A model generated the notes under the pieces. The model was not told the DNA's origin. It did not search any database and was given only the letters and a program-made list of their open reading frames with translations. Of a stretch of 64,000 nucleotides of DNA, positions 17,570 through 51,995 are shown piece after piece. The translations under genes were made by a program, and so were the position numbers. The stretch lies in contig JAYODI010000016.1 in assembly GCA_038279365.1 (NCBI GenBank), positions 224-64,223 on the forward strand. The letters are read 5' to 3'. This DNA comes from Candidatus Latescibacterota bacterium. GTDB taxonomy: Bacteria > Latescibacterota > UBA2968. How positions within the stretch are numbered: the stretch's first letter is position 1; each line of letters opens with the position of its first letter.

Positions 17570-18601
17570 ATGCCTGTTTTTAGGCCAGAAGAATTGCGCC
17601 AACTTGGGTGTGCGATTTATGAGTGTATGGGTGCTTCTGCCAGTGAAGCCAAGACCGTAGCCGATTTGTTGGTTGACGCCAATCTTGCAGGGCACGATTC
17701 TCACGGTGTGGTGCGCATTCCTCAATATGTGTCTGCCATCAAACGCGGGCAAATCAAGTTGGGTACAGCGCCAGAAATAGAACAACAAACTGCGGCAACG
17801 GCGGTGCTCAATGGGCATTGGGGGTTTGGGCATGTCACCGCCAAGGCCGCTATGCAGTTGGCCATTGAAAAAGCCCGTGAAGTTGCGGTGGGTATTGTGA
17901 CCGTGCATCGGTGTAATCATGTTGGCCGATTGGGAGCTTATCCACCGTTGGCGACCGATGTGGGGATGGCTGGGTTGATGACCAACAATGGTCATGGGGC
18001 AGATCGGTCTATGGCACCTTTTGGTGGGTTGGGGCGCATATTACCGGCCAGTTGTATGGCTGTTGCATTTCCCTCGGATCGCGCATTTCCTGTGGCGCTC
18101 GATTTGACGGCTGCTGCTGCTGCGGGTGGCAAAATGCGGGTGGCGTTGGCACGGGGTGAAAAAGTGCCCGAAGGATGGTTGATGGGGGCCGATGGTTTGC
18201 CCACTCAAGAACCGGGAGATTATGTGCATGGCAATGCTTCTTTGGTACCCTTTGGGGGGCACAAGGGATATGGTTTGGGCATAGTGTTTGATATTTTGTC
18301 GGGGGCGTTTTCACCGGCTGGATGCACCCGAGAAAAGTCTCCTGTAACGGGAAACGCTTTGTTTGTGCAGGCAATACGAATAGATGCATTTGTAGCGATG
18401 GATGATTTTAAAAGTGAAGTGGGGCGTTTTATTGACTATGTAAAGTCGTCTCCAAAAGCGCCAGGGGTTGATGAAATTTTGATTCCTGGAGAACGGTCTT
18501 GGCGCACGTGTATGGCGCGAGAAAAACAAGGCATTGAAGTTGAAGAAGCAACCTGGAAGCAAATAAGTGAACTTGCAAAAGATTTGAATGTGAAGATTTA
18601 G
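17570..18601 (+). CDS. Ldh_2 family (malate/L-lactate/ureidoglycolate-type) NAD(P)H oxidoreductase
   Basis: Motifs GHDSHGVVRIPQYV, NHVGRLG and FGGHKGYGL. Confidence 0.85.
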   Translation: MPVFRPEELRQLGCAIYECMGASASEAKTVADLLVDANLAGHDSHGVVRIPQYVSAIKRGQIKLGTAPEIEQQTAATAVLNGHWGFGHVTAKAAMQLAIEKAREVAVGIVTVHRCNHVGRLGAYPPLATDVGMAGLMTNNGHGADRSMAPFGGLGRILPASCMAVAFPSDRAFPVALDLTAAAAAGGKMRVALARGEKVPEGWLMGADGLPTQEPGDYVHGNASLVPFGGHKGYGLGIVFDILSGAFSPAGCTREKSPVTGNALFVQAIRIDAFVAMDDFKSEVGRFIDYVKSSPKAPGVDEILIPGERSWRTCMAREKQGIEVEEATWKQISELAKDLNVKI

Positions 18602-18650
18602 GACATTTGTTTTGGGGCGGGAGGTATCCTGCAAAATAAGGAGATAGGAT

Positions 18651-19982
18651 ATGGCAGACGATATTCAAGCCGCAGCAAAGGCGGCTCGCCAAGCGGGGTT
18701 GCGCCTAAGCCAGGCAAGTCATCAAGCACGGAACGCTGCCTTAGAAGCCATTGCGAAGGCGTTGGGGGCCAATCAGGATAAAATTTTGGAAGCCAATGCA
18801 CGTGATATGAAGGTGGCTGAAGAGATGGTTCAAAAAGGCAAGTTGGGCATGCCTTTACTTAAGCGATTGAAAGTGGATGAGGCCAAGTTGCAAGGGGAAA
18901 TTGTGGTGGGGGTGCGCAGTGTGGCCGATCAAGAAGATCCGATTGGTAAGACCCTAACGGCAACAGAATTGGATGATGGGCTCAATTTGTTTCGCGTTTC
19001 GGTGCCCATTGGTGTGATTGGCGTTATTTTTGAATCGCGACCTGATGCATTGGTACAAATTGCGTGTTTATGCCTTAAATCGGGTAATGCCGTTATGCTC
19101 AAAGGTGGCAGTGAAGCGTTGCACACCAACCGGGCTTTGGCAGAAGTGATGGTTGCTGCAACGGCTGGTTTGCCAGGTATTCCCGATGGTTGGATGCATT
19201 TGCTTGAAGCGCGTGAAGAAGTGGCCGCCATTTTGGATTTGCACGATCTGATCGATTTGATTATTCCGCGTGGTGGCAATGAGTTGGTGCAACACATCAT
19301 GAGCAACACAAAAATTCCTGTGATGGGACATGCCGATGGGATTTGCCATGTGTATGTGGATAAATTTGCAGATGTTGAAAAAGCAAAGCGGATTGCCTTG
19401 GATTCTAAGACACAGTATGTATCGGTATGCAACGCTGCTGAAACGCTGTTGGTGCATCAAGATATTGCAGAAACATTTTTGCCTGATATGGTGAAGGTGT
19501 TTCAGGAGGCGGGTGTGGAAGTTCGTGGCGATGAACGTGTTCAGAAGCTGTGCGGCAATGTGGTTGCGGCAACGGACGTTGATTGGGCAACGGAATATTT
19601 GGATTTGATTATTTCGGTAAAAGTGGTCGATGACTTAGAGGGTGCGATTGACCATATTAATACGTATGGCAGCCATCATACGGATGCCATTGTAACGGAA
19701 GATCAAACGTCTGCGACCTACTTTTTGCAGGCGGTTGATTCGGCATCGGTGATGCACAATGCGTCTACGCGCTTTGCCGATGGTTTTCGATATGGTTTGG
19801 GGGCCGAAGTGGGCATCAGTACCATTCGTTTGCACAGCCGAGGGCCCGTAGGGCTGGAAGGTTTGGTGATTTATAAATATGTGGTGGAAGGCAATGGACA
19901 AATAGTTGGGGATTATGGTGGGCAAAGTGGCAAGCGTTTTACACACAGAAAGTTGGATGCTGTTTGGACACCCAAACAATAA
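18651..19982 (+). CDS. proA: glutamate-5-semialdehyde dehydrogenase (gamma-glutamyl phosphate reductase)
   Basis: Collinear with ProA. Motifs VPIGVIGVIFESRPDA, LKSGNAVMLKGGSEA, IPRGG, VCNAAETLLVH, HTDAIVTED, NASTRFADG and HSRGP. Confidence 0.9.
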   Translation: MADDIQAAAKAARQAGLRLSQASHQARNAALEAIAKALGANQDKILEANARDMKVAEEMVQKGKLGMPLLKRLKVDEAKLQGEIVVGVRSVADQEDPIGKTLTATELDDGLNLFRVSVPIGVIGVIFESRPDALVQIACLCLKSGNAVMLKGGSEALHTNRALAEVMVAATAGLPGIPDGWMHLLEAREEVAAILDLHDLIDLIIPRGGNELVQHIMSNTKIPVMGHADGICHVYVDKFADVEKAKRIALDSKTQYVSVCNAAETLLVHQDIAETFLPDMVKVFQEAGVEVRGDERVQKLCGNVVAATDVDWATEYLDLIISVKVVDDLEGAIDHINTYGSHHTDAIVTEDQTSATYFLQAVDSASVMHNASTRFADGFRYGLGAEVGISTIRLHSRGPVGLEGLVIYKYVVEGNGQIVGDYGGQSGKRFTHRKLDAVWTPKQ

Positions 19983-20045
19983 GGTCAATTTAGTAGATCT
20001 CGTCAAATATCGTATGAGATTGTTATTCGACCCAAGGGGGTTTTA

Positions 20046-22910
20046 ATGAGACGCTGCTTGATAGTGTTTTTATGCGTAATTTTTGCAAGGTGTTCTGCCA
20101 CACAGCAAGGTGTTCAAACACCTCCTGTTGCGGATGTTTTTCCTGTTTCTGAGACGGTGGTGTTGCCCATTGATGACGCTGTGCGCAAAGGGCAATTGGA
20201 CAATGGCCTGACGTACATCATTCGTGAAAATAAACGACCTGAAAACCGGGCGGAGTTGCGGTTGGTGGTCAATGCGGGTTCTATATTAGAAGACGAAGAT
20301 CAACAAGGGTTGGCACATTTTGCAGAACATATGGCATTTAATGGCACGGAACATTTTCCCAAACAAGATATTGTCAACTTTTTGGAAGGTATTGGCATGC
20401 GTTTTGGCGCAGATCTCAATGCCTATACCAGTTTTGATGAAACGGTATACATGTTGCAAGTGCCTACTGATAGCGCGCTGGTGATGTACAAAGCATTTCA
20501 GATATTGGGTGATTGGGCATATCGGGTTGGCTTTGATGGTGAAGAAATAGAAAAAGAACGCGGTGTGGTGATTGACGAATGGCGAACAGGGCGTGGCGCG
20601 GGTGCACGTATGCGTGATTTACAACTGCCCATATTGCTCAAAGGCTCACGTTATGCCGAACGATTGCCCATTGGGCAAAAGGCACTGTTGGATACGTTTG
20701 CCCACGAATCGCTTAAAAGATATTATCAAGATTGGTATCGCCCCGATTTGATGTCTGTGATTGCTGTGGGTGATTTTGACCGTGATTCGGTTGAGGCATT
20801 GATTCAAAAAACGTTTGGTGAACTGCCTGTCGTTGAAAATGCACGTGAGCGTACATCATATACGATTCCAGACCATGAAGAAACATTGTTTGCCATTGCA
20901 ACGGACCCTGAAGCAACGAGTACTTCGGTGTCGATTTATTTTATGCAGGATGTTGCACCACAAGGTACAAAAGAAGATTATCGGCAGATGCTGATTCGCT
21001 CTATGTTTAACAATATGTTAAACCAACGATTGCGTGAATTGACCAAAAAACCCGATCCACCTTTTTTGGGGGCAGGTTCAAGTCGTGGCAATTTGGTGAG
21101 AACAAAAGCAGCTTATATTTTGGGCGCAGGTGTAAAAGAAGGTGGCATTGAACGCGGTTTGGATGCTGTGTTGACAGAAGCACTGCGGGTGCAACGCCAT
21201 GGGTTTACGGTGGCTGAGTTGGAGCGGTTGAAAATTAACATGTTGCGAGGAATTGAACAAGCATATCGCGAGCGTGACAAATCTCGCTCGAGTGGGTTTG
21301 CTTCTGAATATGTGCGCCATTTTTTAACCGGAGAAGTGATTCCGGGTATTGCATATGAGTATGAATTGTATCAGGAGCTTGTGCCTCAAATACAGGTGGA
21401 AGAAATCAATGCATTGGTTGATGAGTGGATTACAAATACCAATCGCGTTATTTTGGTAAATGCACCCGAAAAAGAAAATGTTCCGGTTCCGAGTGAGGCC
21501 GATTTGTTGGCTGTTATTGAAGCGGTGCAACAAAAAGAAATTGCACCTTATGCAGAAAATGTTTCGGACGAACCACTTGTTACAGATATACCAACGCCTG
21601 GCTCTGTTTTGGCAGAGAGCCGTATTGAAGCGTTGAATGTGACAGAATGGGTTTTGAGCAATGGGGTTCGCGTGGTCATGAAGCCCACAGACTTTAAAAA
21701 TGATGAGGTGTTGTTTACTGCTTTTAGCCCTGGTGGCCATTCATTGGTTGACGACAAAGATTATATTGCGGCCACAACGGCAACAACGGTGTTGTCTGAA
21801 AGTGGTTTGGGGAAATTTGATCAGATTGAGTTGGGAAAAAAATTGGCTGGCAAAGTGGCGCGTGTGTCTACGGGAATTGGCAGTCGCACGGAAAGTTTGT
21901 CGGGCAGTGCGTCTCCGCAAGATTTGGAAACGATGTTTCAGTTGATTTATTTAGAATTTATGGCACCTCGCGCAGACAGTTCTGCATTTGTTGCATTTCA
22001 AGATCGTATTAGAGGTATGTTGCAAAATCGTAATTTGAGCCCACAGGCGGCATTTAACGATACGGTGCAGGTAACGATGTCGCAAAATCATTTTCGCTCT
22101 CGTCCGATCTCAATGGATATGTTAAACGAAATGAACTTGCAACGCTCTTTGGAGATTTATAAAGATCGGTTTGCCGATGCCAGTGATTTTACATTTGTTT
22201 TTGTGGGCAATTTTGAACCTGAAAAAATGCGTCCCTTGATTGAAACCTATTTGGGCAGTTTGCCCGGATTAATTCGAAATGAAACACCACGCGATGTGGC
22301 TCCAAAACCACCGGTGGGCGTGGTTGAAAAAACAGTGAAACGGGGTAAAGAACCCAAAAGCCAAACGCTGATTCAATTTACGGGTATGTTTGATTGGCAA
22401 GACCGATTGCACCGTTATCGTTTTGATGCAATGGTCGACGTGTTGCAAATTAAGTTACGCGAAACATTGCGCGAAGACGAAAGTGGGACTTATAGTGTGA
22501 GCGTGCGTGGGTCTCGTTGGCAACATCCGGAACCGCGTTATAGTATTTCGGTGAATTTTGGATGTGATCCTGAACGATTGGAAGAGCTCACGCACTTGGT
22601 GTTTGTCCAAATGGACAGTTTAAAACAATCTCCAGTTGAAGCATCTTATCTTCACAAGGTGACGGAGATGGATTTGCGCAGACGAGAAACGAATTATAAA
22701 GAGAACAGCTTTTGGCGTGGGGCGTTGCGTTCGGCTTATGAAAACAACAGTGATCCGTTGGATATTTTGACTTATGACGATGAAGTGATTCGAAAAGTGA
22801 CAGTAGAGGACATTCAACGGGCGGCACAACAATATTTTAATATGGAAAATTATGCACGGTTTGTGTTGTTGCCAGAGGTTGACGAGATGGCAACACCTGA
22901 AAAACCATAA
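20046..22910 (+). CDS. M16 (pitrilysin/insulinase) family zinc peptidase, double-module, secreted/lipoprotein-like
   Basis: Inverted zinc motif HFAEH, a signal sequence with Cys (FARCSA), and 954 aa with two M16 halves. Confidence 0.9.
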   Translation: MRRCLIVFLCVIFARCSATQQGVQTPPVADVFPVSETVVLPIDDAVRKGQLDNGLTYIIRENKRPENRAELRLVVNAGSILEDEDQQGLAHFAEHMAFNGTEHFPKQDIVNFLEGIGMRFGADLNAYTSFDETVYMLQVPTDSALVMYKAFQILGDWAYRVGFDGEEIEKERGVVIDEWRTGRGAGARMRDLQLPILLKGSRYAERLPIGQKALLDTFAHESLKRYYQDWYRPDLMSVIAVGDFDRDSVEALIQKTFGELPVVENARERTSYTIPDHEETLFAIATDPEATSTSVSIYFMQDVAPQGTKEDYRQMLIRSMFNNMLNQRLRELTKKPDPPFLGAGSSRGNLVRTKAAYILGAGVKEGGIERGLDAVLTEALRVQRHGFTVAELERLKINMLRGIEQAYRERDKSRSSGFASEYVRHFLTGEVIPGIAYEYELYQELVPQIQVEEINALVDEWITNTNRVILVNAPEKENVPVPSEADLLAVIEAVQQKEIAPYAENVSDEPLVTDIPTPGSVLAESRIEALNVTEWVLSNGVRVVMKPTDFKNDEVLFTAFSPGGHSLVDDKDYIAATTATTVLSESGLGKFDQIELGKKLAGKVARVSTGIGSRTESLSGSASPQDLETMFQLIYLEFMAPRADSSAFVAFQDRIRGMLQNRNLSPQAAFNDTVQVTMSQNHFRSRPISMDMLNEMNLQRSLEIYKDRFADASDFTFVFVGNFEPEKMRPLIETYLGSLPGLIRNETPRDVAPKPPVGVVEKTVKRGKEPKSQTLIQFTGMFDWQDRLHRYRFDAMVDVLQIKLRETLREDESGTYSVSVRGSRWQHPEPRYSISVNFGCDPERLEELTHLVFVQMDSLKQSPVEASYLHKVTEMDLRRRETNYKENSFWRGALRSAYENNSDPLDILTYDDEVIRKVTVEDIQRAAQQYFNMENYARFVLLPEVDEMATPEKP

Positions 22911-22932
22911 ACAAAAGTCTTTTTAAAAGGGG

Positions 22933-23646
22933 ATGGGTATGCGTGTGCAAGAGGGTATGAATCGAATTCAACGGGCAAGTTATCCAGGGCGAGGCATCGT
23001 AATTGGGCTCTCGCCAAGTGAGAGGCACTTTGTTCAAGTGTATTGGATTATGGGACGCAGTCCTTCCAGTCGCAATCGGGTGTTTGTGCAGGCGGATGAT
23101 TTTGTAAAGACCGATACAGTAGATAAAACGCAAAAGGTCGATCCACTTACCCTGTATTATCCCATTAAATTTGCCGGGGCATCACATATTGTGAGCAATG
23201 GTGATCAGACCGATACCATTTATGATGCCTTGCAAAAGGGAGGTACTTTTGAGTCGGCCTTAATGACGCGCACATTTGAACCCGATGGCCCCAATTTTAC
23301 GCCTCGGATTTCTGGGGTTGTCGATTTAGAAGATGTTGTTGCTTATCGATTGGCCGTGTTGAAGACGGTGGGTGGTGACGCACGTTATTGTTCTCGACAA
23401 TTTTTTACCTATGAAACAGCCATTGCTGGTGTGGGGCATTGTGTAACAACCTATGTGGATGATGGAAACCCTTTGCCATCATTTGATGGCGAGCCATTTA
23501 CCGTTGCTTTGTATGATGATGCGCAAGAAACGGCAGATGCGTATTGGCATATACTAAATGTGGACAATCGGGTGTCGATGTTGGTGAAATTTATCGATCG
23601 AGATTCGGGCGCATCTCAGTTGATTGTTGTGAATAAGTATGCGTAG
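22933..23646 (+). CDS. IMP cyclohydrolase-like protein (archaeal PurO family)
   Basis: YPGRGIVIG, VSNGDQTDTI and FTPRIS match my recollection of the PurO signatures YLGRILAVG, VSNGSHTDTI and NTPRIA. Confidence 0.7.
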   Translation: MGMRVQEGMNRIQRASYPGRGIVIGLSPSERHFVQVYWIMGRSPSSRNRVFVQADDFVKTDTVDKTQKVDPLTLYYPIKFAGASHIVSNGDQTDTIYDALQKGGTFESALMTRTFEPDGPNFTPRISGVVDLEDVVAYRLAVLKTVGGDARYCSRQFFTYETAIAGVGHCVTTYVDDGNPLPSFDGEPFTVALYDDAQETADAYWHILNVDNRVSMLVKFIDRDSGASQLIVVNKYA

Positions 23647-23675
23647 GTGCCGAATGCTTTTATTGGAGCGCAAGC

Positions 23676-24419
23676 GTGTCTGACTGGCATGAAGACGACG
23701 CGTTTTGGACCGCATTTTACCCTGTGATGTTTTCAGATGCGCGGTGGGCAGTTGCCGATGACGAAGTCCGATCTGCCTTGTCGCTTTTGGACATTCATTC
23801 TCCAACGGATGTCTTGGATTTTTGTTGTGGCCCTGGGCGGCATGCCATTGCACTGGCAAAATTGGGGCATCGCGTTTTGGGGGTTGATCGCACCGCGTTT
23901 TATTTGAATGTGGGGCAAAAAAAAGCCAAAGATGCGGGCGTTGATGTGGTGTTTGAACGAGCAGACGTGCGTTTGTTTCGGCGTATTGAGGCATTCGATT
24001 GTGCGTTGAGCTTGTTTACGTCTTTTGGTTATTTTCAAGACCCTTTTGATGACCTTCAGGTACTCAAAAATGTTTATGAATCGCTGCGGTCGGGGGGGAA
24101 GTTGTTGATGGATTTGTCGGGCAAAGAGGTGGTGGAAAAAGCCCTGACACCATACAGTTGTGCAGAACCCGAACGGGGTTTGATTTGGACTGAAGATCGC
24201 CAAGTCATGGGTGATTGGGAGGGCATTAAAAACAAGTGGACGTTGTTGCGTGGGGAAGAGAAGTTTGAACACACATTGTTTATTCGATTGTATTCGGGTG
24301 AGGCTTTAAAAAAAGCGATGTTGGACGTTGGTTTTTCTCGCGTGAGTTTGTTTGGGTCTTTAGAGGGCGATCCATACGATGATCGGGCGAGGCGTTTGGT
24401 TGCTGTGGGGGTAAAGTGA
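23676..24419 (+). CDS. class I SAM-dependent methyltransferase
   Basis: VLDFCCGPGRH (motif I), VLGVDR and an acidic post-I residue. The start is GTG. Confidence 0.8.
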   Translation: MSDWHEDDAFWTAFYPVMFSDARWAVADDEVRSALSLLDIHSPTDVLDFCCGPGRHAIALAKLGHRVLGVDRTAFYLNVGQKKAKDAGVDVVFERADVRLFRRIEAFDCALSLFTSFGYFQDPFDDLQVLKNVYESLRSGGKLLMDLSGKEVVEKALTPYSCAEPERGLIWTEDRQVMGDWEGIKNKWTLLRGEEKFEHTLFIRLYSGEALKKAMLDVGFSRVSLFGSLEGDPYDDRARRLVAVGVK

Positions 24420-25127
24420 GTGATGGCTGTTCGGGCGTTGACGTTTGATGTGTTTGGCACCGTGGTGGATTGGCGCAGTTCAATTATTCGCGATGGTGTG
24501 CGATTGGGCAAGGCCAAAGGAATGGATGTCGATTGGGCGGCTTTTGCCGACGCTTGGCGAGCAGGATATGGCCCTGCCATGCAGCGGGTCAGGCAGGGTG
24601 ACTTGCCTTGGACAAAAATAGATGATTTGCATCGCATGATCTTAGATGATCTTTTGGATCGTTTTGGCATTTCAAGTTTGAGCGAAAAAGAAAAAGTGGA
24701 TTTGAATTGTGTGTGGCATCGGCTTGATCCTTGGCCCGATGCGGTGGGGGGGCTGTTGCGTTTAAAATCGAAATTTTTGATTGCAACGTTGTCCAATGGC
24801 AATGTGTCTTTATTGGCACATATGGCCAAATATGCTGGTTTGCCGTGGGATTGTATTTTGTCTGCGGAATTGGCACATCATTATAAGCCCGATTCTGAAA
24901 CGTATTTGATGGCCGCCCATTTGCTCAGTTGTCAAGCCAATGAGGTGATGATGGTGGCGGCGCACCAAGGCGATTTGCGTGCGGCAGCCAAAGTGGGGAT
25001 GAAAACGGCTTTTGTGATGCGCCCATTGGAGTATGGGACTGACTGTCAAATTGATGTAACACCTGACCCTCAGTTTGATTATGTGGCACAAGATTTCCAC
25101 GATTTGGCTCATCAATTGGGTCTGTGA
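24420..25127 (+). CDS. HAD-superfamily hydrolase, haloacid dehalogenase type II-like
   Basis: Motifs LTFDVFGTVVDW (DxxGT), LSNG, YKPD and VAAHQGDL. It abuts the preceding stop. Confidence 0.8.
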   Translation: MMAVRALTFDVFGTVVDWRSSIIRDGVRLGKAKGMDVDWAAFADAWRAGYGPAMQRVRQGDLPWTKIDDLHRMILDDLLDRFGISSLSEKEKVDLNCVWHRLDPWPDAVGGLLRLKSKFLIATLSNGNVSLLAHMAKYAGLPWDCILSAELAHHYKPDSETYLMAAHLLSCQANEVMMVAAHQGDLRAAAKVGMKTAFVMRPLEYGTDCQIDVTPDPQFDYVAQDFHDLAHQLGL

Positions 25128-25158
25128 TTGGATATTGTGCCAAAAACAAAGGTATGTT

Positions 25159-26433
25159 ATGATTGAAAACATTGATGTTGCCTATGGGCGTGGTTACATA
25201 CCTATTCGGGCAGATTCTGATTTGGCCGATTGGTCTGTGATTCGCCCTAAGTTTGAAGCGGCATTAGATGCGCCCAAACAGGCTTTTACACAAGCGGTTC
25301 GCAACCCCATTGGGGCGAAGCCTTTAAGAGATATGGTGAAACCGGGTGATCGGGTGGTGATTGCTACGTCGGATGGTACGCGCCCAGTGCCCAACAAACA
25401 ACTGATTCCGTGGTTGCTCGAAGAATTGCCTGTGCCCGAAAGTCAGGTGACGGTATTGGTGGGCACGGGCACGCACCGGCCCAATACCGATGCAGAATTG
25501 GAGGAGATGTTTGGGAAGGATGTGATGCGGCGGGTTCATATTGTGAACCATGATGCATTTGATGGGGGGGGTAATGAACACATTGGAGAGACACAAAGTG
25601 GCACGCCTGTTGTGTTGAACAAGATTTATTTACAAGCGGATTTTAAGATTGCGGTGGGGTTTATTGAACCCCATTTTTTTGCGGGTTTTTCGGGTGGGCC
25701 TAAGGCGGTTGCACCAGGGGTGGCCAGTATTGAGACGATTTTTCGCCTGCATCGGGCTGAATTGATTGGTGATCCTAAAAGTACGTGGGGTGTGTTGGAC
25801 GACAACCCGCTCCATCGCGAAGTGCGTGAAGCAGTGGCACTTTGCCCGCCCGATTTTATGGTGAATGTGACGCTTAATGCAGAGAAGAAAATTTCGGGAT
25901 ATTATGTGGGTGACTATTGTGAGGCGCATCAAAAAGGCTGTGCTGATGTGAAAAAATCTGCGATGGTGGCTGTTAAACAACCCTTTCCTGTGGTGGTTAC
26001 ATCCAACAGTGGTTTTCCTTTGGATCAGAATTTGTATCAAACCGTGAAAGGGCTGTCTGCTGCGGCACGCATTGTGTCGGATGGTGGCAAGATTTTTGTG
26101 GCCAGTGAATGCAGTGATGGGGTGCCCAATCATGGCAATTTTGCATCTTTGATGTTGGAGGGGCAAACACCAGATGATGTGATTGCATCGGTTTATAAAA
26201 AAGAACCGATCTTGGATCAGTGGCAAGCACAGGTATTGAGCAATATCCTGAAACGTGCCGATGTGCATGTATTTACGGCCATGGATGCCGATCATGTACG
26301 CAATTGTAAAATGACGGTGGTGGATGATTTGGATGTGGCCATCAGTGCCCATGTTAAAACGTTGGGGGGGGCGGTGCGTGTGGCCGTACTGCCTGATGGC
26401 CCACTCACCATTCCTTATGTAGAAGGGCTGTGA
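25159..26433 (+). CDS. LarA-like (DUF2088) nickel-pincer-cofactor-dependent racemase/epimerase family protein
   Basis: The motifs GTGTHRP and IEPHFFAGFSGGPKAV correspond to the LarA His and cofactor-tethering Lys region. The start is trimmed to ATG 25159. Confidence 0.75.
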   Translation: MIENIDVAYGRGYIPIRADSDLADWSVIRPKFEAALDAPKQAFTQAVRNPIGAKPLRDMVKPGDRVVIATSDGTRPVPNKQLIPWLLEELPVPESQVTVLVGTGTHRPNTDAELEEMFGKDVMRRVHIVNHDAFDGGGNEHIGETQSGTPVVLNKIYLQADFKIAVGFIEPHFFAGFSGGPKAVAPGVASIETIFRLHRAELIGDPKSTWGVLDDNPLHREVREAVALCPPDFMVNVTLNAEKKISGYYVGDYCEAHQKGCADVKKSAMVAVKQPFPVVVTSNSGFPLDQNLYQTVKGLSAAARIVSDGGKIFVASECSDGVPNHGNFASLMLEGQTPDDVIASVYKKEPILDQWQAQVLSNILKRADVHVFTAMDADHVRNCKMTVVDDLDVAISAHVKTLGGAVRVAVLPDGPLTIPYVEGL

Positions 26434-26434
26434 G

Positions 26435-27280
26435 ATGACTGATGTGATAAACGCTAAAATGAGCCGATTTAATCCTTTGTCGCGCATTGTTTGTTTTGAC
26501 GATTTTGATAGTGGTTTAAATGGGTGGACGGGGTTGATTGGCAATTATGAGAAAACGTTGGATGCCTTGTTACCTGGATATCGCGATTTGCGCCCCCCTA
26601 TGTTGAGCAATGCAACGATGTGGGATACGGGGTCTGCTGGGTCTTGGGATGGTACTTATGCGATGAAGCTGGCCACACGCCCAAAGGCAGGAAGTTTGGC
26701 GGTGGCACTAAAAAGATTGACTTGGCGCTTTGCTGGGCCAATTCGTTTGGAAGCGTATGTGACCTTTAAACCCGAAGCCACCGAATTGGAATTGTCGGAG
26801 TTGGATGTGCGGGCTTTTGGGTTTTTGTGGGATTTGCAAAATGAAAAAGACCGTGTGATGCCGCATTTGCGTTATGTGAACGCGCAAAATGGTGAGCGTA
26901 TTTCGAAATGGCAGTTTAAAAAAGAACGTGAGCCTTTGGCAGATATTGGCAAGTCGGGCAAAACAATGTCGCATTTTCACTTGGCCAACAGCGGGTGGGA
27001 AGATATTCCAAATGCTTCACAACTAATGTGTTACAATGAAATTGCAACCAAGCAAAATTGGCATTATATGTGTGTTGATTTTGATTTGGATTCTATGATG
27101 TTTACGGGCTTTCGGTTTAACAATCACATATTTGATGTGTCACAGATTGCGCCTATGGTGATGCCTGCGATGGCAAATTTGTGGTGTATGTTAAATATGG
27201 TGTTTTTTGTGGAAACCGATTGTGACAAACGGGCATTTTTGTCTGTGGATTCGGTGATGATTTCAGGGGAGTGGGACTGA
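26435..27280 (+). CDS. hypothetical protein (281 aa, no recognised motif)
   Basis: The ATG lies 1 nt after the LarA-like stop. The ORF is uninterrupted with composition matching the neighbours, and it looks beta-rich. Confidence 0.65.
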   Translation: MTDVINAKMSRFNPLSRIVCFDDFDSGLNGWTGLIGNYEKTLDALLPGYRDLRPPMLSNATMWDTGSAGSWDGTYAMKLATRPKAGSLAVALKRLTWRFAGPIRLEAYVTFKPEATELELSELDVRAFGFLWDLQNEKDRVMPHLRYVNAQNGERISKWQFKKEREPLADIGKSGKTMSHFHLANSGWEDIPNASQLMCYNEIATKQNWHYMCVDFDLDSMMFTGFRFNNHIFDVSQIAPMVMPAMANLWCMLNMVFFVETDCDKRAFLSVDSVMISGEWD

Positions 27281-27615
27281 TGCGACAAAGTCATACATCA
27301 ATTATTGAGCGGAATATCACTTGGGAAGATGCATTTGAGACAGAACCCTATGAAGTGGCTTGGGCGTCGGAAGCCATTTTTTTTGTGCGTACGTTGTCGG
27401 TTTTGGGTGTGGTGGGAGATGTTGACGCAAGGGTTCAGATATCACCCGATGGCATGCGTTGGTGTGATGAAGGGACGGTGGTGCCGCTTTCGGGTGAGGT
27501 GGATGGTGTGACCTTTGGTAAGGTATCTCATTTTGGTACCTATTTGCGTTTGGTGGGCGAACTGCCCAAGGGCATGGCATTGACGGTGATTGTGGCTCTT
27601 TCTTTGAAGGAATAA
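27280..27615 (+). CDS. hypothetical protein (111 aa)
   Basis: ATG 27280 overlaps the preceding TGA (TGATG coupling). I recognise no motif. Confidence 0.6.
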   Translation: MRQSHTSIIERNITWEDAFETEPYEVAWASEAIFFVRTLSVLGVVGDVDARVQISPDGMRWCDEGTVVPLSGEVDGVTFGKVSHFGTYLRLVGELPKGMALTVIVALSLKE

Positions 27616-27618
27616 AAA

Positions 27619-28371
27619 ATGGCAAACGGCAAACGGCAAATGGCAAAGGTGTTGCTTCAAATGGTGACGGTTGGGCTGATGTATTTGCTGATGGTGGGGG
27701 CTTTACAAGCTGGTGAGCCCTTTGCCGTATTGGAATTGTTTACTTCTCAAGGCTGATCGAGTTGCCCGTCTGCCGATCAGTTGCTCGGCGAATTGTCTGA
27801 TGTTGATCAACGTATTTTTGCGTTGAGTTTCCATGTAGATTATTGGAATCGTTTGGGGTGGGTGGATCCTTTTAGTCAAAAAGCTTTTTCGCAACGGCAA
27901 CGCCGTTATGCCCAAGTTTTGAAAGACCGGCGTGTGTATACGCCCGAAATGGTGGTGAATGGCAAAGATGGTTTTGTTGGCTCGGATCGTCAAAGAGCCA
28001 AACATCGCATTGCACAAGCTTTGCGCGATACGGTGGACGTGTCCTTAGATTTGACGACGCAATCTGGAGGCAATGCTACCCGATTACAGGTGGTTTATCG
28101 ATTGGATGTGGTTCCTGAAAATGCCGTGTTGCATGTGGCATTGGTGGAAAAAATGGCACAGGTGCAGGTGCCACGTGGCGAGAATGCTGGACGTAGTCTA
28201 CAGCATCATCATGTGGTGCGTGAATTTGTCTCTGTAAAGGCAGATACGATGGGTGTGGTGCGTTTGAAAATACCTGATGGACTTGAAAGAGAAAAGATCG
28301 ACGTGATTGGATTTGTGCAGGATAAAGTGTCGATGTCTATTTTGGCAGCAAATTTTTTAGGCCAAGAATAA
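27619..28371 (+). CDS. DUF1223 thioredoxin-fold protein with in-frame TGA at 27754..27756 (candidate selenocysteine, UxxC)
   Basis: Same frame as track ORF 27781..28371. Upstream translation gives MANGKRQMAKVLLQMVTVGLMYLLMVGALQAGEPFAVLELFTSQG-TGA-SSCPSADQLLGELSD..FALSFHVDYWNRLGWVDPF..RVYTPEMVVNG. The family hallmark is ELFTSQGCSSCPxAD. The total of about 250 aa matches the family size. Confidence 0.6.
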
Positions 28372-28398
28372 CTTCAGAACAAAAGGGAGGCGGTTCAG

Positions 28399-29559
28399 AT
28401 GGGTAATCCGGTGAAGGTTGCAGTGGTTGGTTTGGGGCAACGTGGTTTGCAACACCTCAAAGCTTTGTGGACATTACAAAGTGAAGGGCAAGTAGACGTG
28501 GTTGCTTTGGGTGATGCATTTGAAGGCAATTTGGCGCAAGAGAAGATTGCCAAATATGTACCCGGTTTTGTATTGGGTGATATTCCAACATTTACACAGT
28601 TTGATGATTTATATGCCAATACGAAATTTGATGCGTTATATATGGTGATTCCGCCAGGATTTCACAAAGGTGAAATTGTGCGTGCGGTAGGTGATGGCGT
28701 GCATATTTTTGCCGAAAAACCTATGAGCTTGTTTTTGGACGAAGCCATCGAAATGGATGAAGCCATTCGCAAATCGGGTGTGATTTCAACAACGGGTTTC
28801 CAACGCAGGCACGAACCTTTTAGTGAGGTTGCGCATCAGTTTTTTAAAGACAAACGCCCCGTGATGGCCACTATGATTTCTGAAGGGTTTTTGGAACAGC
28901 ATTCGGTGAAACACACGCAAACGGCAACAAAGGGTGGACCCAAAGACAATGTGTGGGCCAAAAACGCGGCTTGGTCGGGTATGACGGTTGTGGAAGCGGG
29001 TATTCATCAAACCGATTTGATGCGGTATTGGTTTGGCGATATCAAATGGGTACAAGCGGCTTATGTGCCACGTGATGCAGAGGATGTGGAAGACGGAGGA
29101 GATAACCCATATGCCTATACGGTGACGTATGGATTTGAAAATGGGGCGGTGGGCAATTTGCTGATGTCGCGTTTGCGCAAAGTGTATCGCTCGGGTGGGT
29201 ATCAAATTGCGATGTGGAATCACGGTCATTTGGTGCAAGAAGGCAACGAGGCAGTGGCTTACTATTATGATGGACCCTATCCGCCTTCAGACAAACCTAC
29301 TACGGATTCGGTGCGCCATGTTTTGGAGATGCCAGAGCAACGCGACACGACATATGAGATCAACAAAGCTTTTGTTCAGGCAGTACAATCGGGAGATGAA
29401 TCGGGTATGCGCAATACGTTTGCCAGCAGCATGAACAGTTTGGCCGCGGTATTGGCCGCAAATGTGTCACACATGCGCAATGGTGAACGCATAGATTTGG
29501 ATGCCTTTTTAACTTCTGATGTGTATGCTCAATATCGACAACGACCGGAAGGAATGTAA
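28399..29559 (+). CDS. Gfo/Idh/MocA family oxidoreductase
   Basis: N-terminal Rossmann motif VKVAVVGLGQRG, then EKP. SD GGGAGG. Confidence 0.85.
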   Translation: MGNPVKVAVVGLGQRGLQHLKALWTLQSEGQVDVVALGDAFEGNLAQEKIAKYVPGFVLGDIPTFTQFDDLYANTKFDALYMVIPPGFHKGEIVRAVGDGVHIFAEKPMSLFLDEAIEMDEAIRKSGVISTTGFQRRHEPFSEVAHQFFKDKRPVMATMISEGFLEQHSVKHTQTATKGGPKDNVWAKNAAWSGMTVVEAGIHQTDLMRYWFGDIKWVQAAYVPRDAEDVEDGGDNPYAYTVTYGFENGAVGNLLMSRLRKVYRSGGYQIAMWNHGHLVQEGNEAVAYYYDGPYPPSDKPTTDSVRHVLEMPEQRDTTYEINKAFVQAVQSGDESGMRNTFASSMNSLAAVLAANVSHMRNGERIDLDAFLTSDVYAQYRQRPEGM

Positions 29560-29560
29560 T

Positions 29561-30520
29561 ATGGGATCTATAGATAAACCATTGACAGAGTTGGTGGGAT
29601 ATAAACCTGATCAAACAACACCTTCAGATTTTGATGCTTTTTGGGATGGTTTGTGTGGTGAAAGTGCATCCATTCCGCTCAATGCCAGTTTTACAAAGGT
29701 GGATGATATATTGCCTTTGGCCAATGTGTACGATGTGGCATTTGATGGGGTAGATGGTGTTCGGGTAAAAGGGTGGTTTTTGACACCCAAGGATATTGCC
29801 CAACCTCTACCTGCTGTGGTACAGTTTATTGGGTATTCGGGGGGGCGAGATTATCCGCACGCATTGGCGTCTCATGTGCTGAATGGTTTTTGTGCATTTA
29901 TTATGGACTCTCGCGGGCAAGGGGGCAATACGGGGCAACGGTTGGATACGTCGCATGGTGGACAGCGCGGATTTATTACCCATGGTATTTTGGATAAGAA
30001 CGAATATTATTACAAAAATTTCTATTTGGACACCATTCGAGCCGTAGAAGTTGTGCGTGAACGCGAGGAAGTGGATGGGGCGCGCATTGCTGCCATTGGT
30101 GGCAGCCAAGGGGGGGCGTTGACCATTGCATGTGCGGCTTTATCTCCGCATGTGACGGTGATGGCTCCTGATGTACCTTGGTTGTCACATTTTCGGCGTT
30201 CGGTTGATTTGGCGGTGGGGCCCTATGAAGAGATTACGGATTTTATGAAGCGGTTTCCAGATCGCATTGAAGATGCATTTTCTACCTTGGCTTATTTTGA
30301 CAATATGAATTTGGTAAGCCGGGTAGGGGTTTCTCAGGCTTATTATTCTGTGGGTTTGTGGGATAATATTTGCCCGCCATCGACGGTCTATGCGTCTTAT
30401 AATTGGTTGCCCACATCTGTTGAAAAGCAGATCGCTGTGTATCCTTATAACGGCCATGAAGGCGGTGGTAATTTGCATCAAAGCCGCAAGCTAAAATGGT
30501 TGCGAGACGTTTTGGGATAG
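29561..30520 (+). CDS. acetyl-xylan esterase / cephalosporin-C deacetylase (CE7, AXE1)
   Basis: PSDFDAFW, nucleophile elbow GGSQGG, and a C-terminal ..YPYNGHEGG. The start is trimmed to ATG 29561. Confidence 0.85.
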   Translation: MGSIDKPLTELVGYKPDQTTPSDFDAFWDGLCGESASIPLNASFTKVDDILPLANVYDVAFDGVDGVRVKGWFLTPKDIAQPLPAVVQFIGYSGGRDYPHALASHVLNGFCAFIMDSRGQGGNTGQRLDTSHGGQRGFITHGILDKNEYYYKNFYLDTIRAVEVVREREEVDGARIAAIGGSQGGALTIACAALSPHVTVMAPDVPWLSHFRRSVDLAVGPYEEITDFMKRFPDRIEDAFSTLAYFDNMNLVSRVGVSQAYYSVGLWDNICPPSTVYASYNWLPTSVEKQIAVYPYNGHEGGGNLHQSRKLKWLRDVLG

Positions 30521-30540
30521 GACTGGCATAACAAAATAAA

Positions 30541-30574
30541 AGCCCCCAGCAACATGCGTTGCTGGGGGCTTTTG
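30541..30574. terminator. bidirectional intrinsic terminator
   Basis: AGCCCCCAGCAAC-ATGC-GTTGCTGGGGGCT forms a 13-bp GC-rich stem flanked by A-runs and T-runs. It lies between the convergent esterase and pckA genes. Confidence 0.8.
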
Positions 30575-30583
30575 CGTGATCTT

Positions 30584-32164
30584 TTATTTGGGACCTGCTT
30601 TGATAATCTCTTTGCTGGTGCCAGATTCAAATTGTTTGAAATTTTGCTTAAACAAATGTGCCAAATGTGCGGCTTTTGCATCGTAGGCACTGGCATTGGC
30701 CCACGTGTTTTTGGGCCACAAAATACTCCCTGTTACATCGGGGCAGGTTTTGGGCACATTGAGGCCAAAGACAGGATCGATGTCGTAGTCTATATTGGCC
30801 AGAGAACCGTTGTGGATGGCGTTGATGATAGAGCGTGTATTGGTGAGTGTGATGCGTTTGCCCACACCATAACCGCCACCGGACCACCCGGTGTTGACCA
30901 ACCAAACGTGGGAGTCGTGTTCACGGATTTTTTCAGCCAACATTTCGGCATATTTGCTGGGGTGCCAAACCAAAAAGGGTGCACCAAAGCATGCTGAAAA
31001 GGAGGCCTGTGGTTCGGTAATGCCCATTTCGGTGCCTGCTACTTTTGCTGTGTAACCACTGATAAAATGGTACATGGCTTGTTCGGGTGTGAGTTTGCTC
31101 ACGGGAGGCAGTACCCCAAATGCATCACAGGTGAGAAATATTACATTTTGTGGGTGCCCACTGATACAAGGAATTTGGGCATTGGGTATGTATTCAATTG
31201 GATATGCGGCTCGGGTATTTTCGGTAATGGTGTCGTCTTCATAATTGACAGATCGGTTGTTGAGATCGTATCCCACATTTTCTAAGACGGTACCAAAACG
31301 AATGGCATTGTAGATCTCGGGTTCACGGGCTTGTGATAGGTTGATGCATTTGGCATAACAGCCGCCTTCAAAGTTGAACACTCCTTTATTGCTCCAGCCG
31401 TGTTCATCATCACCAATGAGGCGACGGCGAGGATCGGCTGAAAGGGTGGTTTTGCCTGTCCCTGATAACCCAAAAAAGAGTGCCGTATCGCCGGCATTGC
31501 CTACATTGGCAGAACAATGCATGGACATGATACCTTGTTTGGGGAGCAAATAATTGAGCACTGTAAAGATGCCTTTTTTCATTTCGCCGGCATATTCGGT
31601 GCCCAAAATCACCATTTCTTTGTGTTCAAAGCTTAAGTCTACGCTGGTTGTAGATGTCATGGCTGCGGTGTAACGATTGGCTGGAAAACGCCCCGCATTA
31701 AAAATGACATAATCTGGATCACCAAAACTTTCTAAATCGCGTCGGGTGGGGCGAATGAGCATGTTGTTCATAAAGAGAGCATGGTAGGCACGTGTGCAAA
31801 TGACGCGTACTTTGATGCGATATTCGGGGTCCCAACCGGCATAACCATCGACAACAAAAAGGCGATCACACACATTGAGATAGTCGATGGCACGTTCGCG
31901 GTTGACCAAGAAAGTGTGTTCGTCGAGTTTGATATTGATGTCACCCCACCAAATGTCTTTTTCACTGTCGGGGTGGTACATCACACGCTTATCCCCTGGG
32001 CTTCGACCTGTTTTATCGCCAGATCGAACCGCCAATGCACCTGTATTTGTAATGACTGATCCGGTTTCTCGTTTTAGTGCTTCTTCATAAAGAACGGCTG
32101 GTGAGCAGTTGCGGAGGATGTTCTGATTGGTAATGTGATATTTTTCCAGGCTAATGTTATTCAT
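30584..32164 (-). CDS. pckA: phosphoenolpyruvate carboxykinase (ATP)
   Basis: Motifs [27 protein letters not shown] and GCYAKC. The start is set at ATG 32164 (GGAAGGA 9 nt upstream). Confidence 0.95.
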
Positions 32165-32351
32165 GTATAACATTCCTTCCTCGGTGAAAAAAGATGAGTT
32201 TAAATTCCCATACCTAATATACCTTATTGGACAACTTTTGCACAAGCGCGTCTTTATTAAAATTTTGATTGGATGGCTGGGTGCGTTTTTTTTGTCTTTT
32301 ATTTTTATTTGGTTTTATATTGCACCATCACCTTTTTAGAAAGGAATGATT

Positions 32352-45811: not shown

Positions 45812-45851
45812 GGGTTAGGTATTGGTGGATGATAACGAGAAGGGATATCTG

Positions 45852-51984: not shown

Positions 51985-51995
51985 GGGATGTCCTT

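What the first reader, a model, noticed from the sequence alone, without database searches (positions are those of the whole stretch)
27619..28371. In-frame TGA at the first Cys of the CxxC motif of a DUF1223 thioredoxin-fold protein: candidate selenoprotein (UxxC)
The ORF track reports only a TTG-initiated 196-aa fragment (27781..28371). Reading the same frame from ATG 27619 gives a signal peptide, then EPFAVLELFTSQG-[TGA 27754..27756]-SSCPSADQLLGELSD..FALSFHVDYWNRLGWVDPF. From memory, the defining motif of the roughly 250-aa DUF1223 family is ELFTSQGCSSCPxAD. The TGA therefore sits exactly where the first redox Cys belongs, and the full reading is about 250 aa. TGA terminates several neighbouring genes (12273, 25125, 26431, 27278), so the genome is not TGA-recoded. 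Replacement of the N-terminal Cys of a CxxC pair by Sec is the classic signature of bacterial thiol-oxidoreductase-type selenoproteins. Two hairpins could serve as a bSECIS. One is GCCGA (27772-27776) / UCGGC (27785-27789) with loop UCAGUUGC, starting 15 nt after the UGA. The other is CUGAUCG (27753-27759) / CGAUCAG (27774-27780), which encloses the UGA. I do not know whether a Sec-containing DUF1223 form has been described.
Basis: partly seen in the sequence, partly recalled or inferred. Interest (0 to 1): 0.8.

Follow-up and report, generated by a model that had tools for sequence, protein, structure and literature searches.

The report
Selenocysteine form of DUF1223 thioredoxin-fold protein
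The in-frame TGA is very probably a genuine selenocysteine codon in an exported thioredoxin-fold protein (DUF1223/SrlA family), followed by a conserved RNA hairpin, and this selenium-containing form is widespread in environmental bacteria yet missing from current selenoprotein catalogues.

Summary
ATG 27619 to TAA 28371 is one 250-codon frame with a single TGA at 27754-27756. The product is a full-length DUF1223 protein (Pfam E 1.4e-59), and the TGA occupies the first Cys of the CxxC motif, which is Cys in 80 of 80 reference-genome homologs.

It is not an error or a pseudogene:
- Nine distinct syntenic orthologs (63-92% identity) from independent assemblies keep TGA at that codon, and one ortholog has TGT.
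- dN/dS is 0.04 upstream and 0.18 downstream of the TGA.
- A metagenome scan found 85 more U-x-x-C DUF1223 genes. Together with the window's clade they form 29 sequence clusters.

A 7-bp hairpin with an AGUU loop lies 22 nt after the UGA (window 27772-27789). It fits the published bacterial SECIS consensus, co-varies across clades, and is present in 29 of 52 Sec forms against 1 of 76 Cys forms.

DUF1223 is absent from the 119-family selenoprotein table of a 2026 review.

One gap remains. No selA, selB, selC or selD lies in the window, so the Sec-decoding capacity of this Latescibacterota genome is inferred and not shown.

Verdict: a real, apparently uncatalogued selenoprotein family of a familiar UxxC type.

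The parts
27607..27611 (+). Shine-Dalgarno-like AAGGA, 7 nt upstream of ATG 27619
   Evidence: Read directly from the sequence. No such motif precedes the TTG at 27781. The next gene (ATG 28399) has GGGAGG upstream, so this genome does use SD sites.
27619..28371 (+). Full DUF1223 selenoprotein gene: 250 codons plus TAA, with Sec at codon 46
   Evidence: Translation. Pfam PF06764 at E 1.4e-59 over the full profile. PDB 2AXO (Atu2684) at E 1.6e-27. Syntenic orthologs.
27619..27711 (+). Predicted signal peptide (residues 1-31, MANGKRQMAKVLLQMVTVGLMYLLMVGALQA), which implies export
   Evidence: Inferred from the sequence: a basic n-region, a hydrophobic core and an LQA|G cleavage site. The AF2 model of ortholog P0004 has an N-terminal helix at residues 5-23 followed by a low-confidence linker. 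The homolog SrlA is reported to have a predicted signal sequence (PMC9561847). No signal-peptide predictor was run.
27754..27756 (+). Sec-encoding UGA (residue 46)
   Evidence: Aligned to Cys in 80 of 80 reference homologs. TGA in 9 distinct orthologs and TGT in ortholog L084. TGA in 85 further metagenomic DUF1223 genes.
27754..27765 (+). U-S-S-C redox motif (UxxC)
   Evidence: In the AF2 model of the Cys ortholog, the CxxC (residues 46-49) follows strand b1 (36-42) and caps helix a1 (49-59).
27772..27789 (+). bSECIS hairpin. The 5' arm is GCCGAUC (27772-27778), the apical loop AGUU (27779-27782) and the 3' arm GCUCGGC (27783-27789). Six of 7 pairs form, with a UxC mismatch at 27777/27784. The loop starts 22 nt after the UGA.
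   Evidence: In-register pairing statistics, covariation, energies and suppressed synonymous variation.
27754..27793 (+). Match to covariance model R1 (UGA plus hairpin), built from Sec clades other than the window's own
   Evidence: 41.6 bits at E 6.6e-11, the only significant hit in 64 kb on both strands; the next best scores 11 bits. It scores above all 81 Cys-form controls, whose maximum is 33.1; ortholog L084 scores 11.9.

Best explanation
Window 27619-28371 is one gene for an exported DUF1223 (SrlA/Atu2684-type) thioredoxin-fold protein. The N-terminal redox Cys of its CxxC motif is replaced by selenocysteine, encoded by UGA 27754-27756.

Proposed mechanism, step by step:
1. Translation starts at ATG 27619, behind an AAGGA ribosome-binding site. 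The site is read from the sequence; its use is inferred.
2. A roughly 31-residue signal peptide directs the protein to the cell envelope (inferred).
3. When the ribosome reaches the UGA, the hairpin at 27772-27789 sits at the mRNA entrance, with its AGUU loop 22 nt downstream. It acts as a bacterial SECIS that recruits SelB-GTP-Sec-tRNA(Sec), so Sec is inserted instead of termination. The element and its conservation are shown; its function is inferred.
4. The mature protein carries U46-S-S-C49 at the N-cap of helix a1 of a thioredoxin-like domain, followed by a beta-sandwich domain. The geometry is shown by homology and by a model.
5. It probably works as a selenol/thiol oxidoreductase in envelope defence against oxidative or peroxide stress. 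This is inferred from the S. meliloti homolog SrlA.

The host is a marine Candidatus Latescibacterota bacterium.
For: - Family and position: full-length PF06764 match. The TGA column is Cys in 80 of 80 GTDB-representative homologs.
- Conservation of the TGA: 9 distinct syntenic orthologs (63-92% identity, seen in 12 loci) from NCBI, ENA, JGI and Logan assemblies all have TGA. The one Cys ortholog, L084/P0004, has TGT. L179 reproduces the window's TGA from another read set.
- Selection: dN/dS is 0.04 for the 14 codons upstream of the TGA and 0.18 downstream, with dS of about 1.2-1.4.
- RNA constraint: synonymous variation reaches its minimum for the whole gene in the 12-codon windows starting between codon -1 and codon +7 relative to the UGA (0.16-0.21 against 0.44 overall).
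- Breadth: 85 more UxxC DUF1223 genes in metagenomes. With the window's clade, the 79 complete Sec forms fall into 29 clusters at 60% linkage.
- Hairpin statistics: at least 6 of 7 pairs form in register in 29 of 52 non-redundant Sec forms against 1 of 76 Cys forms (Fisher 1.8e-13). A hairpin meeting the published criteria is found in 41 of 52 against 15 of 76 (2e-11).
- Covariation: score 0.255 against 0.110 +/- 0.015 in shuffles (0 of 500 reach it), and all slid registers score lower.
- bSECIS criteria are taken from PMC13188914, Fig. 2.
- Covariance model without the window's clade: one hit in the window, 41.6 bits.
- Fold: AF2 model with pLDDT 92.7; Foldseek top match 2AXO at E 5e-16.
- Function of the homolog SrlA: PMC9561847.
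- TGA is a normal stop in 12 of 53 window genes.
Against: - No selA, selB, selD or tRNA-Sec lies in the 64-kb window or in any fetched locus. Sec-decoding capacity of this genome is therefore not demonstrated.
- No other selenoprotein candidate lies in the window.
- The window's own hairpin is weaker than in other clades. It has one UxC mismatch and folds at -6.3 kcal/mol for the 18-nt core and -8.2 in a 32-nt context, against -10.9 to -12.8 elsewhere. It is not exceptional against shuffles (z -1.2).
- No Rfam family matches.
- The covariance model also scores Cys-form sites up to 33 bits, because it includes conserved coding sequence.
- There is no experimental evidence of selenium incorporation.
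Confidence: 0.87

Rival explanations
1. Pseudogene or sequencing/assembly error: a TGC or TGT codon mutated or was misread as TGA, and the gene is dead.
For: The window holds no Sec machinery. Gene callers split the gene. One related lineage (L087/L088) does carry defects in neighbouring genes: a TAG in DUF6772 and a frameshift in AXE1.
Against: The same TGA occurs in 9 distinct orthologs from independent assemblies and in 85 further genes. Purifying selection is strong on both sides, with dN/dS of 0.04 and 0.18 at near-saturated dS. L179 has the identical TGA from another read set. The nucleotide-level conservation and covariation of the downstream hairpin are specific to TGA forms.
Confidence: 0.02
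2. The TGA is a true stop. A 45-residue leader peptide is made, and the DUF1223 body is either translated separately from an internal start (such as TTG 27781) or not used.
For: A TTG at 27781 is conserved in the clade, and gene callers use it.
Against: That TTG is a Leu codon inside the hairpin and has no SD-like sequence upstream. Gene callers choose different internal starts in different orthologs, giving products of 174-198 aa. A product starting there would lack the signal peptide, strand b1 and the whole redox motif of the thioredoxin fold. The upstream ELFTSQG segment is under very strong protein-level constraint and is continuous with the family profile.
Confidence: 0.04
3. The UGA is read through, but not as Sec. 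Possibilities are near-cognate Cys or Trp insertion, or a lineage-specific reassignment, with the hairpin acting only as a generic read-through stimulator.
For: Sec machinery is unverified. Stem-loops downstream of stop codons can stimulate read-through in other systems (general knowledge).
Against: TGA ends 12 of 53 genes in the window. The replaced residue is specifically the nucleophilic Cys of a CxxC motif, which is the classic Sec position. The hairpin matches the bSECIS consensus in loop size, in G-U at loop positions 2-3, and in its 22-nt spacing. The same arrangement recurs in 29 clusters from very different habitats and presumably different phyla, which a lineage-specific reassignment would not explain.
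Confidence: 0.05

Closest known systems
DUF1223 (PF06764) Cys-containing proteins: SrlA of Sinorhizobium meliloti and Atu2684 of Agrobacterium (PDB 2AXO)
   Same: Same family (E 1.4e-59 to the profile, 1.6e-27 to 2AXO). Same ELFTSQG-x-SSCP-x-AD and HVDYWN motifs, the same N-terminal signal sequence, and the same thioredoxin-like domain followed by a beta-sandwich. SrlA is needed for salt and peroxide tolerance.
   Different: The first redox residue is encoded by UGA (Sec) instead of Cys, and the coding sequence of helix a1 is shaped by an RNA hairpin. Sec forms read ADQLIG or AEEFLG there, where Cys forms read ADRLLS or similar.
Known UxxC thioredoxin-fold bacterial selenoproteins (Trx, Grx, DsbA-like, DsbG-like, thiol:disulfide interchange protein, Prx-like, redoxin family)
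   Same: Sec replaces the N-terminal Cys of a CxxC pair at the N-cap of helix a1. Cys-containing homologs predominate. A bSECIS lies within the coding region immediately downstream (PMC13188914 Table 1).
   Different: It belongs to a different Pfam family, which is not among the 119 listed families and subfamilies. It has an extra C-terminal beta-sandwich domain. No NCBIfam selenoprotein model matches it.
Bacterial SECIS element (consensus model of Zhang and Gladyshev, as summarised in PMC13188914 Fig. 2; prototype E. coli fdhF)
   Same: A stem-loop in the ORF after the UGA. The apical loop is 4 nt with G at position 2 followed by U. The spacing from UGA to the loop is 22 nt (allowed 16-37). 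The upper stem is 7 bp in most clades, with energies of -11 to -13 kcal/mol.
   Different: It is a short, family-specific hairpin embedded in conserved codons (GCC GAn nAG UUn nUC GGC). In the window's clade one stem position is mismatched and the energy is marginal. Some Sec clades use a hairpin shifted by a few nucleotides or with a different loop (CGUGC, AGAUG, GGUC). No Rfam model matches.

Membership tests
DUF1223 (Pfam PF06764) | Whole-protein score above the Pfam gathering cut-off, with full profile coverage | tested here: met
   202 bits against a cut-off of 30.7; residues 37-234 cover profile positions 1-202 of 202.
DUF1223 (Pfam PF06764) | Thioredoxin-like fold with CxxC at the b1/a1 junction, as in the solved member 2AXO | tested here: met
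   phmmer to 2AXO at E 1.6e-27. AF2 model of ortholog P0004 has pLDDT 92.7, and Foldseek's top match is 2AXO at E 5e-16 with TM 0.66-0.74. The ortholog was modelled, not the window protein itself.
Bacterial selenoprotein gene | In-frame UGA aligned with Cys in homologs | tested here: met
   80 of 80 reference homologs have TGC or TGT at that codon. Syntenic ortholog L084 has TGT.
Bacterial selenoprotein gene | UGA conserved in orthologs, with purifying selection on both sides | tested here: met
   9 distinct orthologs plus 85 metagenomic genes carry TGA. dN/dS is 0.04 upstream and 0.18 downstream.
Bacterial selenoprotein gene | bSECIS stem-loop downstream: loop of 3-9 nt, upper stem of 4-16 bp, G in the first two loop positions, 16-37 nt from the UGA, MFE at or below -7.5 kcal/mol | tested here: met
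   Family-wide: 41 of 52 Sec forms against 15 of 76 Cys forms meet all criteria, and covariation beats all 500 shuffles. In the window, the loop is AGUU with G at position 2, the spacing is 22 nt, 6 of 7 pairs form, and the energy is -8.2 kcal/mol in a 32-nt context. The UxC mismatch means the contiguous upper stem next to the loop is only 1 bp, so the window's own copy passes the strict rule only marginally. It was rejected by my strict script and accepted by the covariance model at 41.6 bits.
Bacterial selenoprotein gene | selA, selB, selC (tRNA-Sec) and selD present in the same genome | not testable with these tools
   None lies in the window or in any fetched locus. The rest of the genome could not be read. 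The SelA-like gene at 45822-47039 belongs to the DgaE family: TIGR01437 at 8.7e-101, and 58 bits to true selA against a cut-off of 268.
Bacterial selenoprotein gene | Selenium incorporation shown experimentally | not testable with these tools
   Needs 75Se labelling or mass spectrometry.
Catalogued prokaryotic selenoprotein families (119 in PMC13188914 Table 1; NCBIfam selenoprotein models) | Family listed in the table, or matched by a dedicated model | tested here: not met
   PF06764/DUF1223 is absent from the whole table. No NCBIfam model matches above its cut-off. No paper in the library contains both 'DUF1223' and 'selenoprotein'. The term is absent from the held supplements of three selenoproteome screens.
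Rfam SECIS families | Match to an Rfam covariance model | tested here: not met
   No match at gathering score over the window, and none at E up to 10 over 27700-27900.

The most novel reading that the evidence does not exclude
Sec-containing DUF1223 is a previously uncatalogued family of exported selenoproteins. It is ecologically widespread, with at least 29 sequence clusters from soil, rhizosphere, sediment and sea water. It has its own conserved in-ORF bSECIS, a 7-bp hairpin with an AGUU loop 22 nt after the UGA, which visibly constrains the amino-acid sequence of helix a1. Its presence would also be the first indication that marine Latescibacterota decode selenocysteine. The nearly identical hairpin sequence in distant Sec clades, together with its decayed remnant in the syntenic Cys ortholog, suggests an ancient Sec form with repeated Sec-to-Cys losses.
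Probability: 0.6. Interest if true: 0.65.

Novelty: new member of a known kind. Interest (0 to 1): 0.6.

Why it matters
- Annotation. The finding adds a selenoprotein family that current catalogues and annotation pipelines miss. All Sec forms seen here were called as truncated 174-198 aa fragments, or as two ORFs, by every source.
- Function. It gives a functional handle on DUF1223/SrlA. A Sec/Cys pair at the first CxxC position is strong evidence that this residue is the catalytic redox nucleophile, so the family is a genuine envelope oxidoreductase. In S. meliloti a Cys-to-Ser substitution in the CxxC left the role of the motif ambiguous.
- Detection. It supplies a compact, well-defined bSECIS with natural covariation, which is useful for training SECIS and selenoprotein predictors.
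- Ecology. It flags selenium use in Latescibacterota and in many soil and sediment lineages.

Tried and rejected
- Rfam scans gave no SECIS or other family, either over the whole window at gathering score or over 27700-27900 at E up to 10.
- ARAGORN found no tRNA-Sec in the window or in 41 loci.
- Pfam and NCBIfam annotation of 39 window ORFs found no selB, selD or true selA. The SelA hit at 45822-47039 is a DgaE-family lyase.
- A systematic scan for other genes interrupted by an in-frame TGA found only the DUF1223 gene as credible. All other candidates lie inside, or overlap, better genes in other frames.
- The in-frame stop in DUF6772 of L087/L088 was checked as a possible second selenoprotein. 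It is a TAG aligned to Gln, so it is not Sec.
- The hairpin enclosing the UGA (27753-27780) is preferred by RNAalifold within the window's clade. Across the family it shows no excess pairing or covariation: 56.6% paired against 56.2%, with 123 of 500 shuffles reaching its covariation score. It was rejected as the functional element.
- Single-sequence folding energies were uninformative (z between +0.5 and -1.2).
- My strict implementation of the bSECIS criteria rejects the window's own clade because of the UxC mismatch. This was resolved by in-register comparison and by the covariance model.
- The covariance model separates Sec sites from Cys sites only moderately, because conserved coding sequence contributes to the score.
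- The BSepDB supplements are not held as text. Literature searches linking Latescibacteria with Sec returned nothing relevant.
- The rest of the host genome could not be reached.

Full report
**1. The observation**

Window 27619-28371 (+) reads as one frame of 250 codons with a single internal TGA at 27754-27756. The mechanical ORF list shows only a TTG-initiated 196-aa piece, 27781-28371. With the TGA read as Cys, the protein matches Pfam DUF1223 (PF06764) over the entire profile: positions 1-202 of 202, 202 bits, E 1.4e-59. The TGA lies in ELFTSQG-[TGA]-SSCP, at the first position of the family's CxxC motif.

- TGA is the stop at 12273, 25125, 26431 and 27278.
- Among 53 window genes the stops are TAA 29, TAG 12 and TGA 12, so TGA is not globally recoded.
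- An SD-like AAGGA lies 7 nt before ATG 27619. Nothing similar precedes TTG 27781.

**2. The homolog column**

A scan of one genome per species (GTDB representatives) returned 80 loci at 38-50% identity. Seventy-nine have TGC or TGT at this codon. The eightieth (L010) has an upstream frameshift but still encodes GCSSCP. The TGA therefore replaces an invariant Cys.

**3. Orthologs**

In the 5.8-billion-protein collection, the nearest relatives (63-92% identity) are all truncated calls of 174-198 aa. The exception is P0004 (66% identity), which is full length at 252 aa. I fetched the DNA around them. All lie in the same gene order as the window:
- Ldh_2, aldehyde dehydrogenase, M16 peptidase, IMP cyclohydrolase, methyltransferase, HAD
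- LarA, DUF6772, a 111-aa ORF, DUF1223
- GFO/IDH/MocA, AXE1, and PEPCK on the opposite strand

Reading upstream in frame shows TGA at exactly the same codon in every truncated one. That is 9 distinct orthologs, seen in 12 loci from NCBI, ENA, JGI and Logan assemblies. P0004/L084 has TGT. An independent Logan assembly (L179) is 100% identical to the window over 1,964 bases, TGA included.

Selection is purifying on both sides. For the 14 codons before the TGA (GEPFAVLELFTSQG), dN/dS is 0.04 at a dS of about 1.2. For the body of the gene it is 0.18 at a dS of about 1.4. A dead gene or a sequencing error cannot produce this pattern.

**4. An RNA constraint after the UGA**

Among the 9 TGA-carrying orthologs, I measured the fraction of synonymous codon pairs that differ. 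It is 0.44 over the gene. It falls to 0.16-0.21 in 12-codon windows starting between codon -1 and codon +7 relative to the UGA, the lowest values anywhere in the gene. The Cys ortholog differs at many of these synonymous sites.

**5. Family-wide distribution**

I scanned the metagenome collection for E-[LF]-[FY]-T-x-[QE]-G-TGA-x-x-C-P. It gave 85 stretches, and essentially all of them translate as genuine DUF1223 proteins through the TGA. They come from soil, rhizosphere, sediment and marine samples. Together with the window's clade, the 79 complete Sec forms fall into 29 clusters at 60% single linkage.

The window's clade (17 sequences) has a Cys form as its nearest relative (71% identity). 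Its nearest other Sec cluster is at 43%. Sec and Cys forms are therefore interleaved, as is usual for selenoprotein families.

**6. The SECIS element**

The published bacterial SECIS consensus (PMC13188914, Fig. 2) requires:
- an apical loop of 3-9 nt
- an upper stem of 4-16 bp
- a G in the first two loop positions, usually followed by G or U
- 16-37 nt between the UGA and the loop
- an MFE at or below -7.5 kcal/mol

I applied these criteria to the 70 nt after the codon. A qualifying hairpin was found in 41 of 52 non-redundant Sec forms and in 15 of 76 Cys forms (Fisher 2e-11).

Most Sec forms share one hairpin in the same codon register. Counting the U of UGA as position 1, the stem pairs positions 19-25 with 30-36 and the loop is 26-29. 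The loop is AGUU in 29 of 52. The stems co-vary:
- GCCGAUC/GAUCGGC
- GCCGAGG/CCUCGGC
- GCCGACG/CGUCGGC
- GCCGAGA/UCUCGGC
- GCCGAUG/CAUCGGC
- GCGGAGG/CCUCCGC

At least 6 of the 7 pairs form in 29 of 52 Sec forms against 1 of 76 Cys forms (Fisher 1.8e-13). On the 51-sequence alignment, 77.3% of cells pair against 66.9% in shuffles. The covariation score is 0.255 against 0.110 +/- 0.015, with 0 of 500 shuffles reaching either value. All registers slid by 1-3 columns score lower. Pairs 24-31 and 25-30 each show three or four Watson-Crick or wobble types. Other Sec clades use hairpins shifted by a few nucleotides, with loops such as CGUGC, AGAUG or GGUC.

In the window the element is 27772-27789, GCCGAUC-AGUU-GCUCGGC. 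Six of 7 pairs form, with a UxC mismatch at 27777/27784. The loop starts 22 nt after the UGA.

| Hairpin | Energy (kcal/mol) |
|---|---|
| Window, 18-nt core | -6.3 |
| Window, 32-nt context | -8.2 |
| Other Sec clades, 18-nt core | -10.9 to -12.8 |
| Cys ortholog L084, 18-nt core | -0.3 |

A covariance model built from 45 Sec sequences, with the window's clade excluded, finds exactly one significant site in the window's 128 kb of both strands. It is 27754-27793 at 41.6 bits and E 7e-11; the next hit scores 11 bits. The same model scores the CxxC sites of 81 Cys-form loci at 8-33 bits, and L084 at 11.9. The window ranks above all of them. The separation is moderate, because conserved coding sequence contributes to the score.

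Across the family it has no support: 56.6% paired against 56.2%, and 123 of 500 shuffles reach its covariation score. Its loop would also start only 6 nt after the UGA, outside the 16-37 nt range of the consensus. No Rfam family matches.

**7. The protein**

PDB 2AXO (Atu2684) is a DUF1223 member (E 1.6e-27). An AlphaFold model of the Cys ortholog P0004 (pLDDT 92.7) shows:
- an N-terminal helix (residues 5-23)
- strand b1 (36-42)
- the CxxC (46-49) capping helix a1 (49-59), within a thioredoxin-like domain
- a C-terminal beta-sandwich

Foldseek's best match is 2AXO (E 5e-16), followed by the Omp28 domain and the thioredoxin-plus-sandwich C-terminal region of DipZ.

The only functional study I found concerns SrlA of S. 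meliloti, which is 58% identical to Atu2684. It has a predicted signal sequence and a thioredoxin fold. It is required for growth on high-salt solid medium and for tolerance to H2O2 and cumene hydroperoxide. A C61S change in its CXXC alters autoregulation (PMC9561847). Sec at the first CxxC position is the classic arrangement of redox selenoproteins (PMC13188914). The most likely function is therefore an exported selenol/thiol oxidoreductase in envelope defence against oxidative stress. That function is inferred, not shown.

**8. Host and Sec machinery**

Proteins at least 90% identical to six window proteins are labelled Candidatus Latescibacterota in several NCBI MAGs. The window itself is rich in sulfatases, heparinase-like enzymes, GH116 and sugar dehydrogenases.

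The window holds no tRNA and no selB, selD or true selA. The SelA-family hit at 45822-47039 is a DgaE-type ammonia-lyase. None of the fetched loci carries a tRNA-Sec. I found no literature on Sec use in this phylum. The presence of Sec-decoding machinery in this genome is the one defining feature I could not test.

**9. Novelty**

- No paper in the searched library contains both 'DUF1223' and 'selenoprotein'.
- The 2026 review that compiles 119 prokaryotic selenoprotein families and subfamilies, with their Pfam and NCBIfam identifiers, does not list PF06764.
- No NCBIfam selenoprotein model matches the protein.
- The held supplements of three large selenoproteome screens do not mention it.

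It is best filed as a new member of a well-known kind: a UxxC thioredoxin-fold selenoprotein with Cys homologs and an in-ORF bSECIS.

**10. Verdict**

I put the confidence that UGA 27754 encodes Sec at about 0.87. The remaining doubt comes from the untested Sec machinery and the somewhat weak hairpin in this particular clade.

Noticed in passing
window 45822-47039 (+): A 405-aa PLP enzyme hits Pfam SelA and could be mistaken for Sec machinery. NCBIfam places it in the DgaE (SelA-related ammonia-lyase) family at 8.7e-101. It scores only 58 bits to true selA, whose cut-off is 268.
   Followed up: yes
window 23676-25127 (+), TGA at 24417-24419: The methyltransferase and HAD-hydrolase genes lie in the same frame, separated only by a TGA. 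A JGI variant (P0162, 483 aa) has Gly at that codon and fuses the two proteins.
   Followed up: partly
L087 2901-2903 and about 6186; L088 9057-9059: In one marine lineage of TGA-carrying relatives, the neighbouring DUF6772 gene has a TAG at a position that is Gln (CAA) in the window, and in L087 the AXE1 esterase is also frameshifted. These may be pseudogenes, strain variants or assembly errors. They are unrelated to Sec.
   Followed up: partly
window 27620-27650 (+): The 5' end of the DUF1223 gene consists of four 7-nt units, GGCAAAN (encoding MANGKRQMAK). Orthologs vary in sequence and length here, which may indicate a slippage-prone N-terminus.
   Followed up: no
window 17570-32245 and loci L081-L093: A gene block is strictly conserved around DUF1223 in all relatives: Ldh_2, Aldedh, M16, IMP cyclohydrolase, MTase, HAD, LarA, DUF6772, an unannotated 111-aa ORF (27271-27615), DUF1223, GFO/IDH/MocA, AXE1, and PEPCK on the opposite strand. 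Any functional link to DUF1223 is unknown.
   Followed up: no
window about 28300-28371 (+): Synonymous variation among orthologs is also low at the 3' end of the DUF1223 gene (0.25-0.30 against 0.44 overall). This may reflect an overlapping signal for the next gene, whose SD (GGGAGG) is at about 28384-28389. It remains unexplained.
   Followed up: no
window 27772-27789; alignment A3: The RNA hairpin constrains the protein. Sec forms have A-[DE]-[QEK]-[FL]-[LIV]-G in helix a1 (ADQLIG, AEEFLG), whereas Cys forms mostly have ADRLLS or ADKLLA. The Cys ortholog L084 keeps a decayed copy of the hairpin (GCUGAUCAAUUGCUUGGG), which suggests a Sec-to-Cys conversion.
   Followed up: partly
window 51130-52165 (-): A stop-free frame of about 345 codons overlaps, in another frame, the 210-aa ORF 51135-51767, which has no Pfam hit. 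The latter is probably a shadow ORF, and the real gene here is mis-delimited in my ORF set.
   Followed up: no
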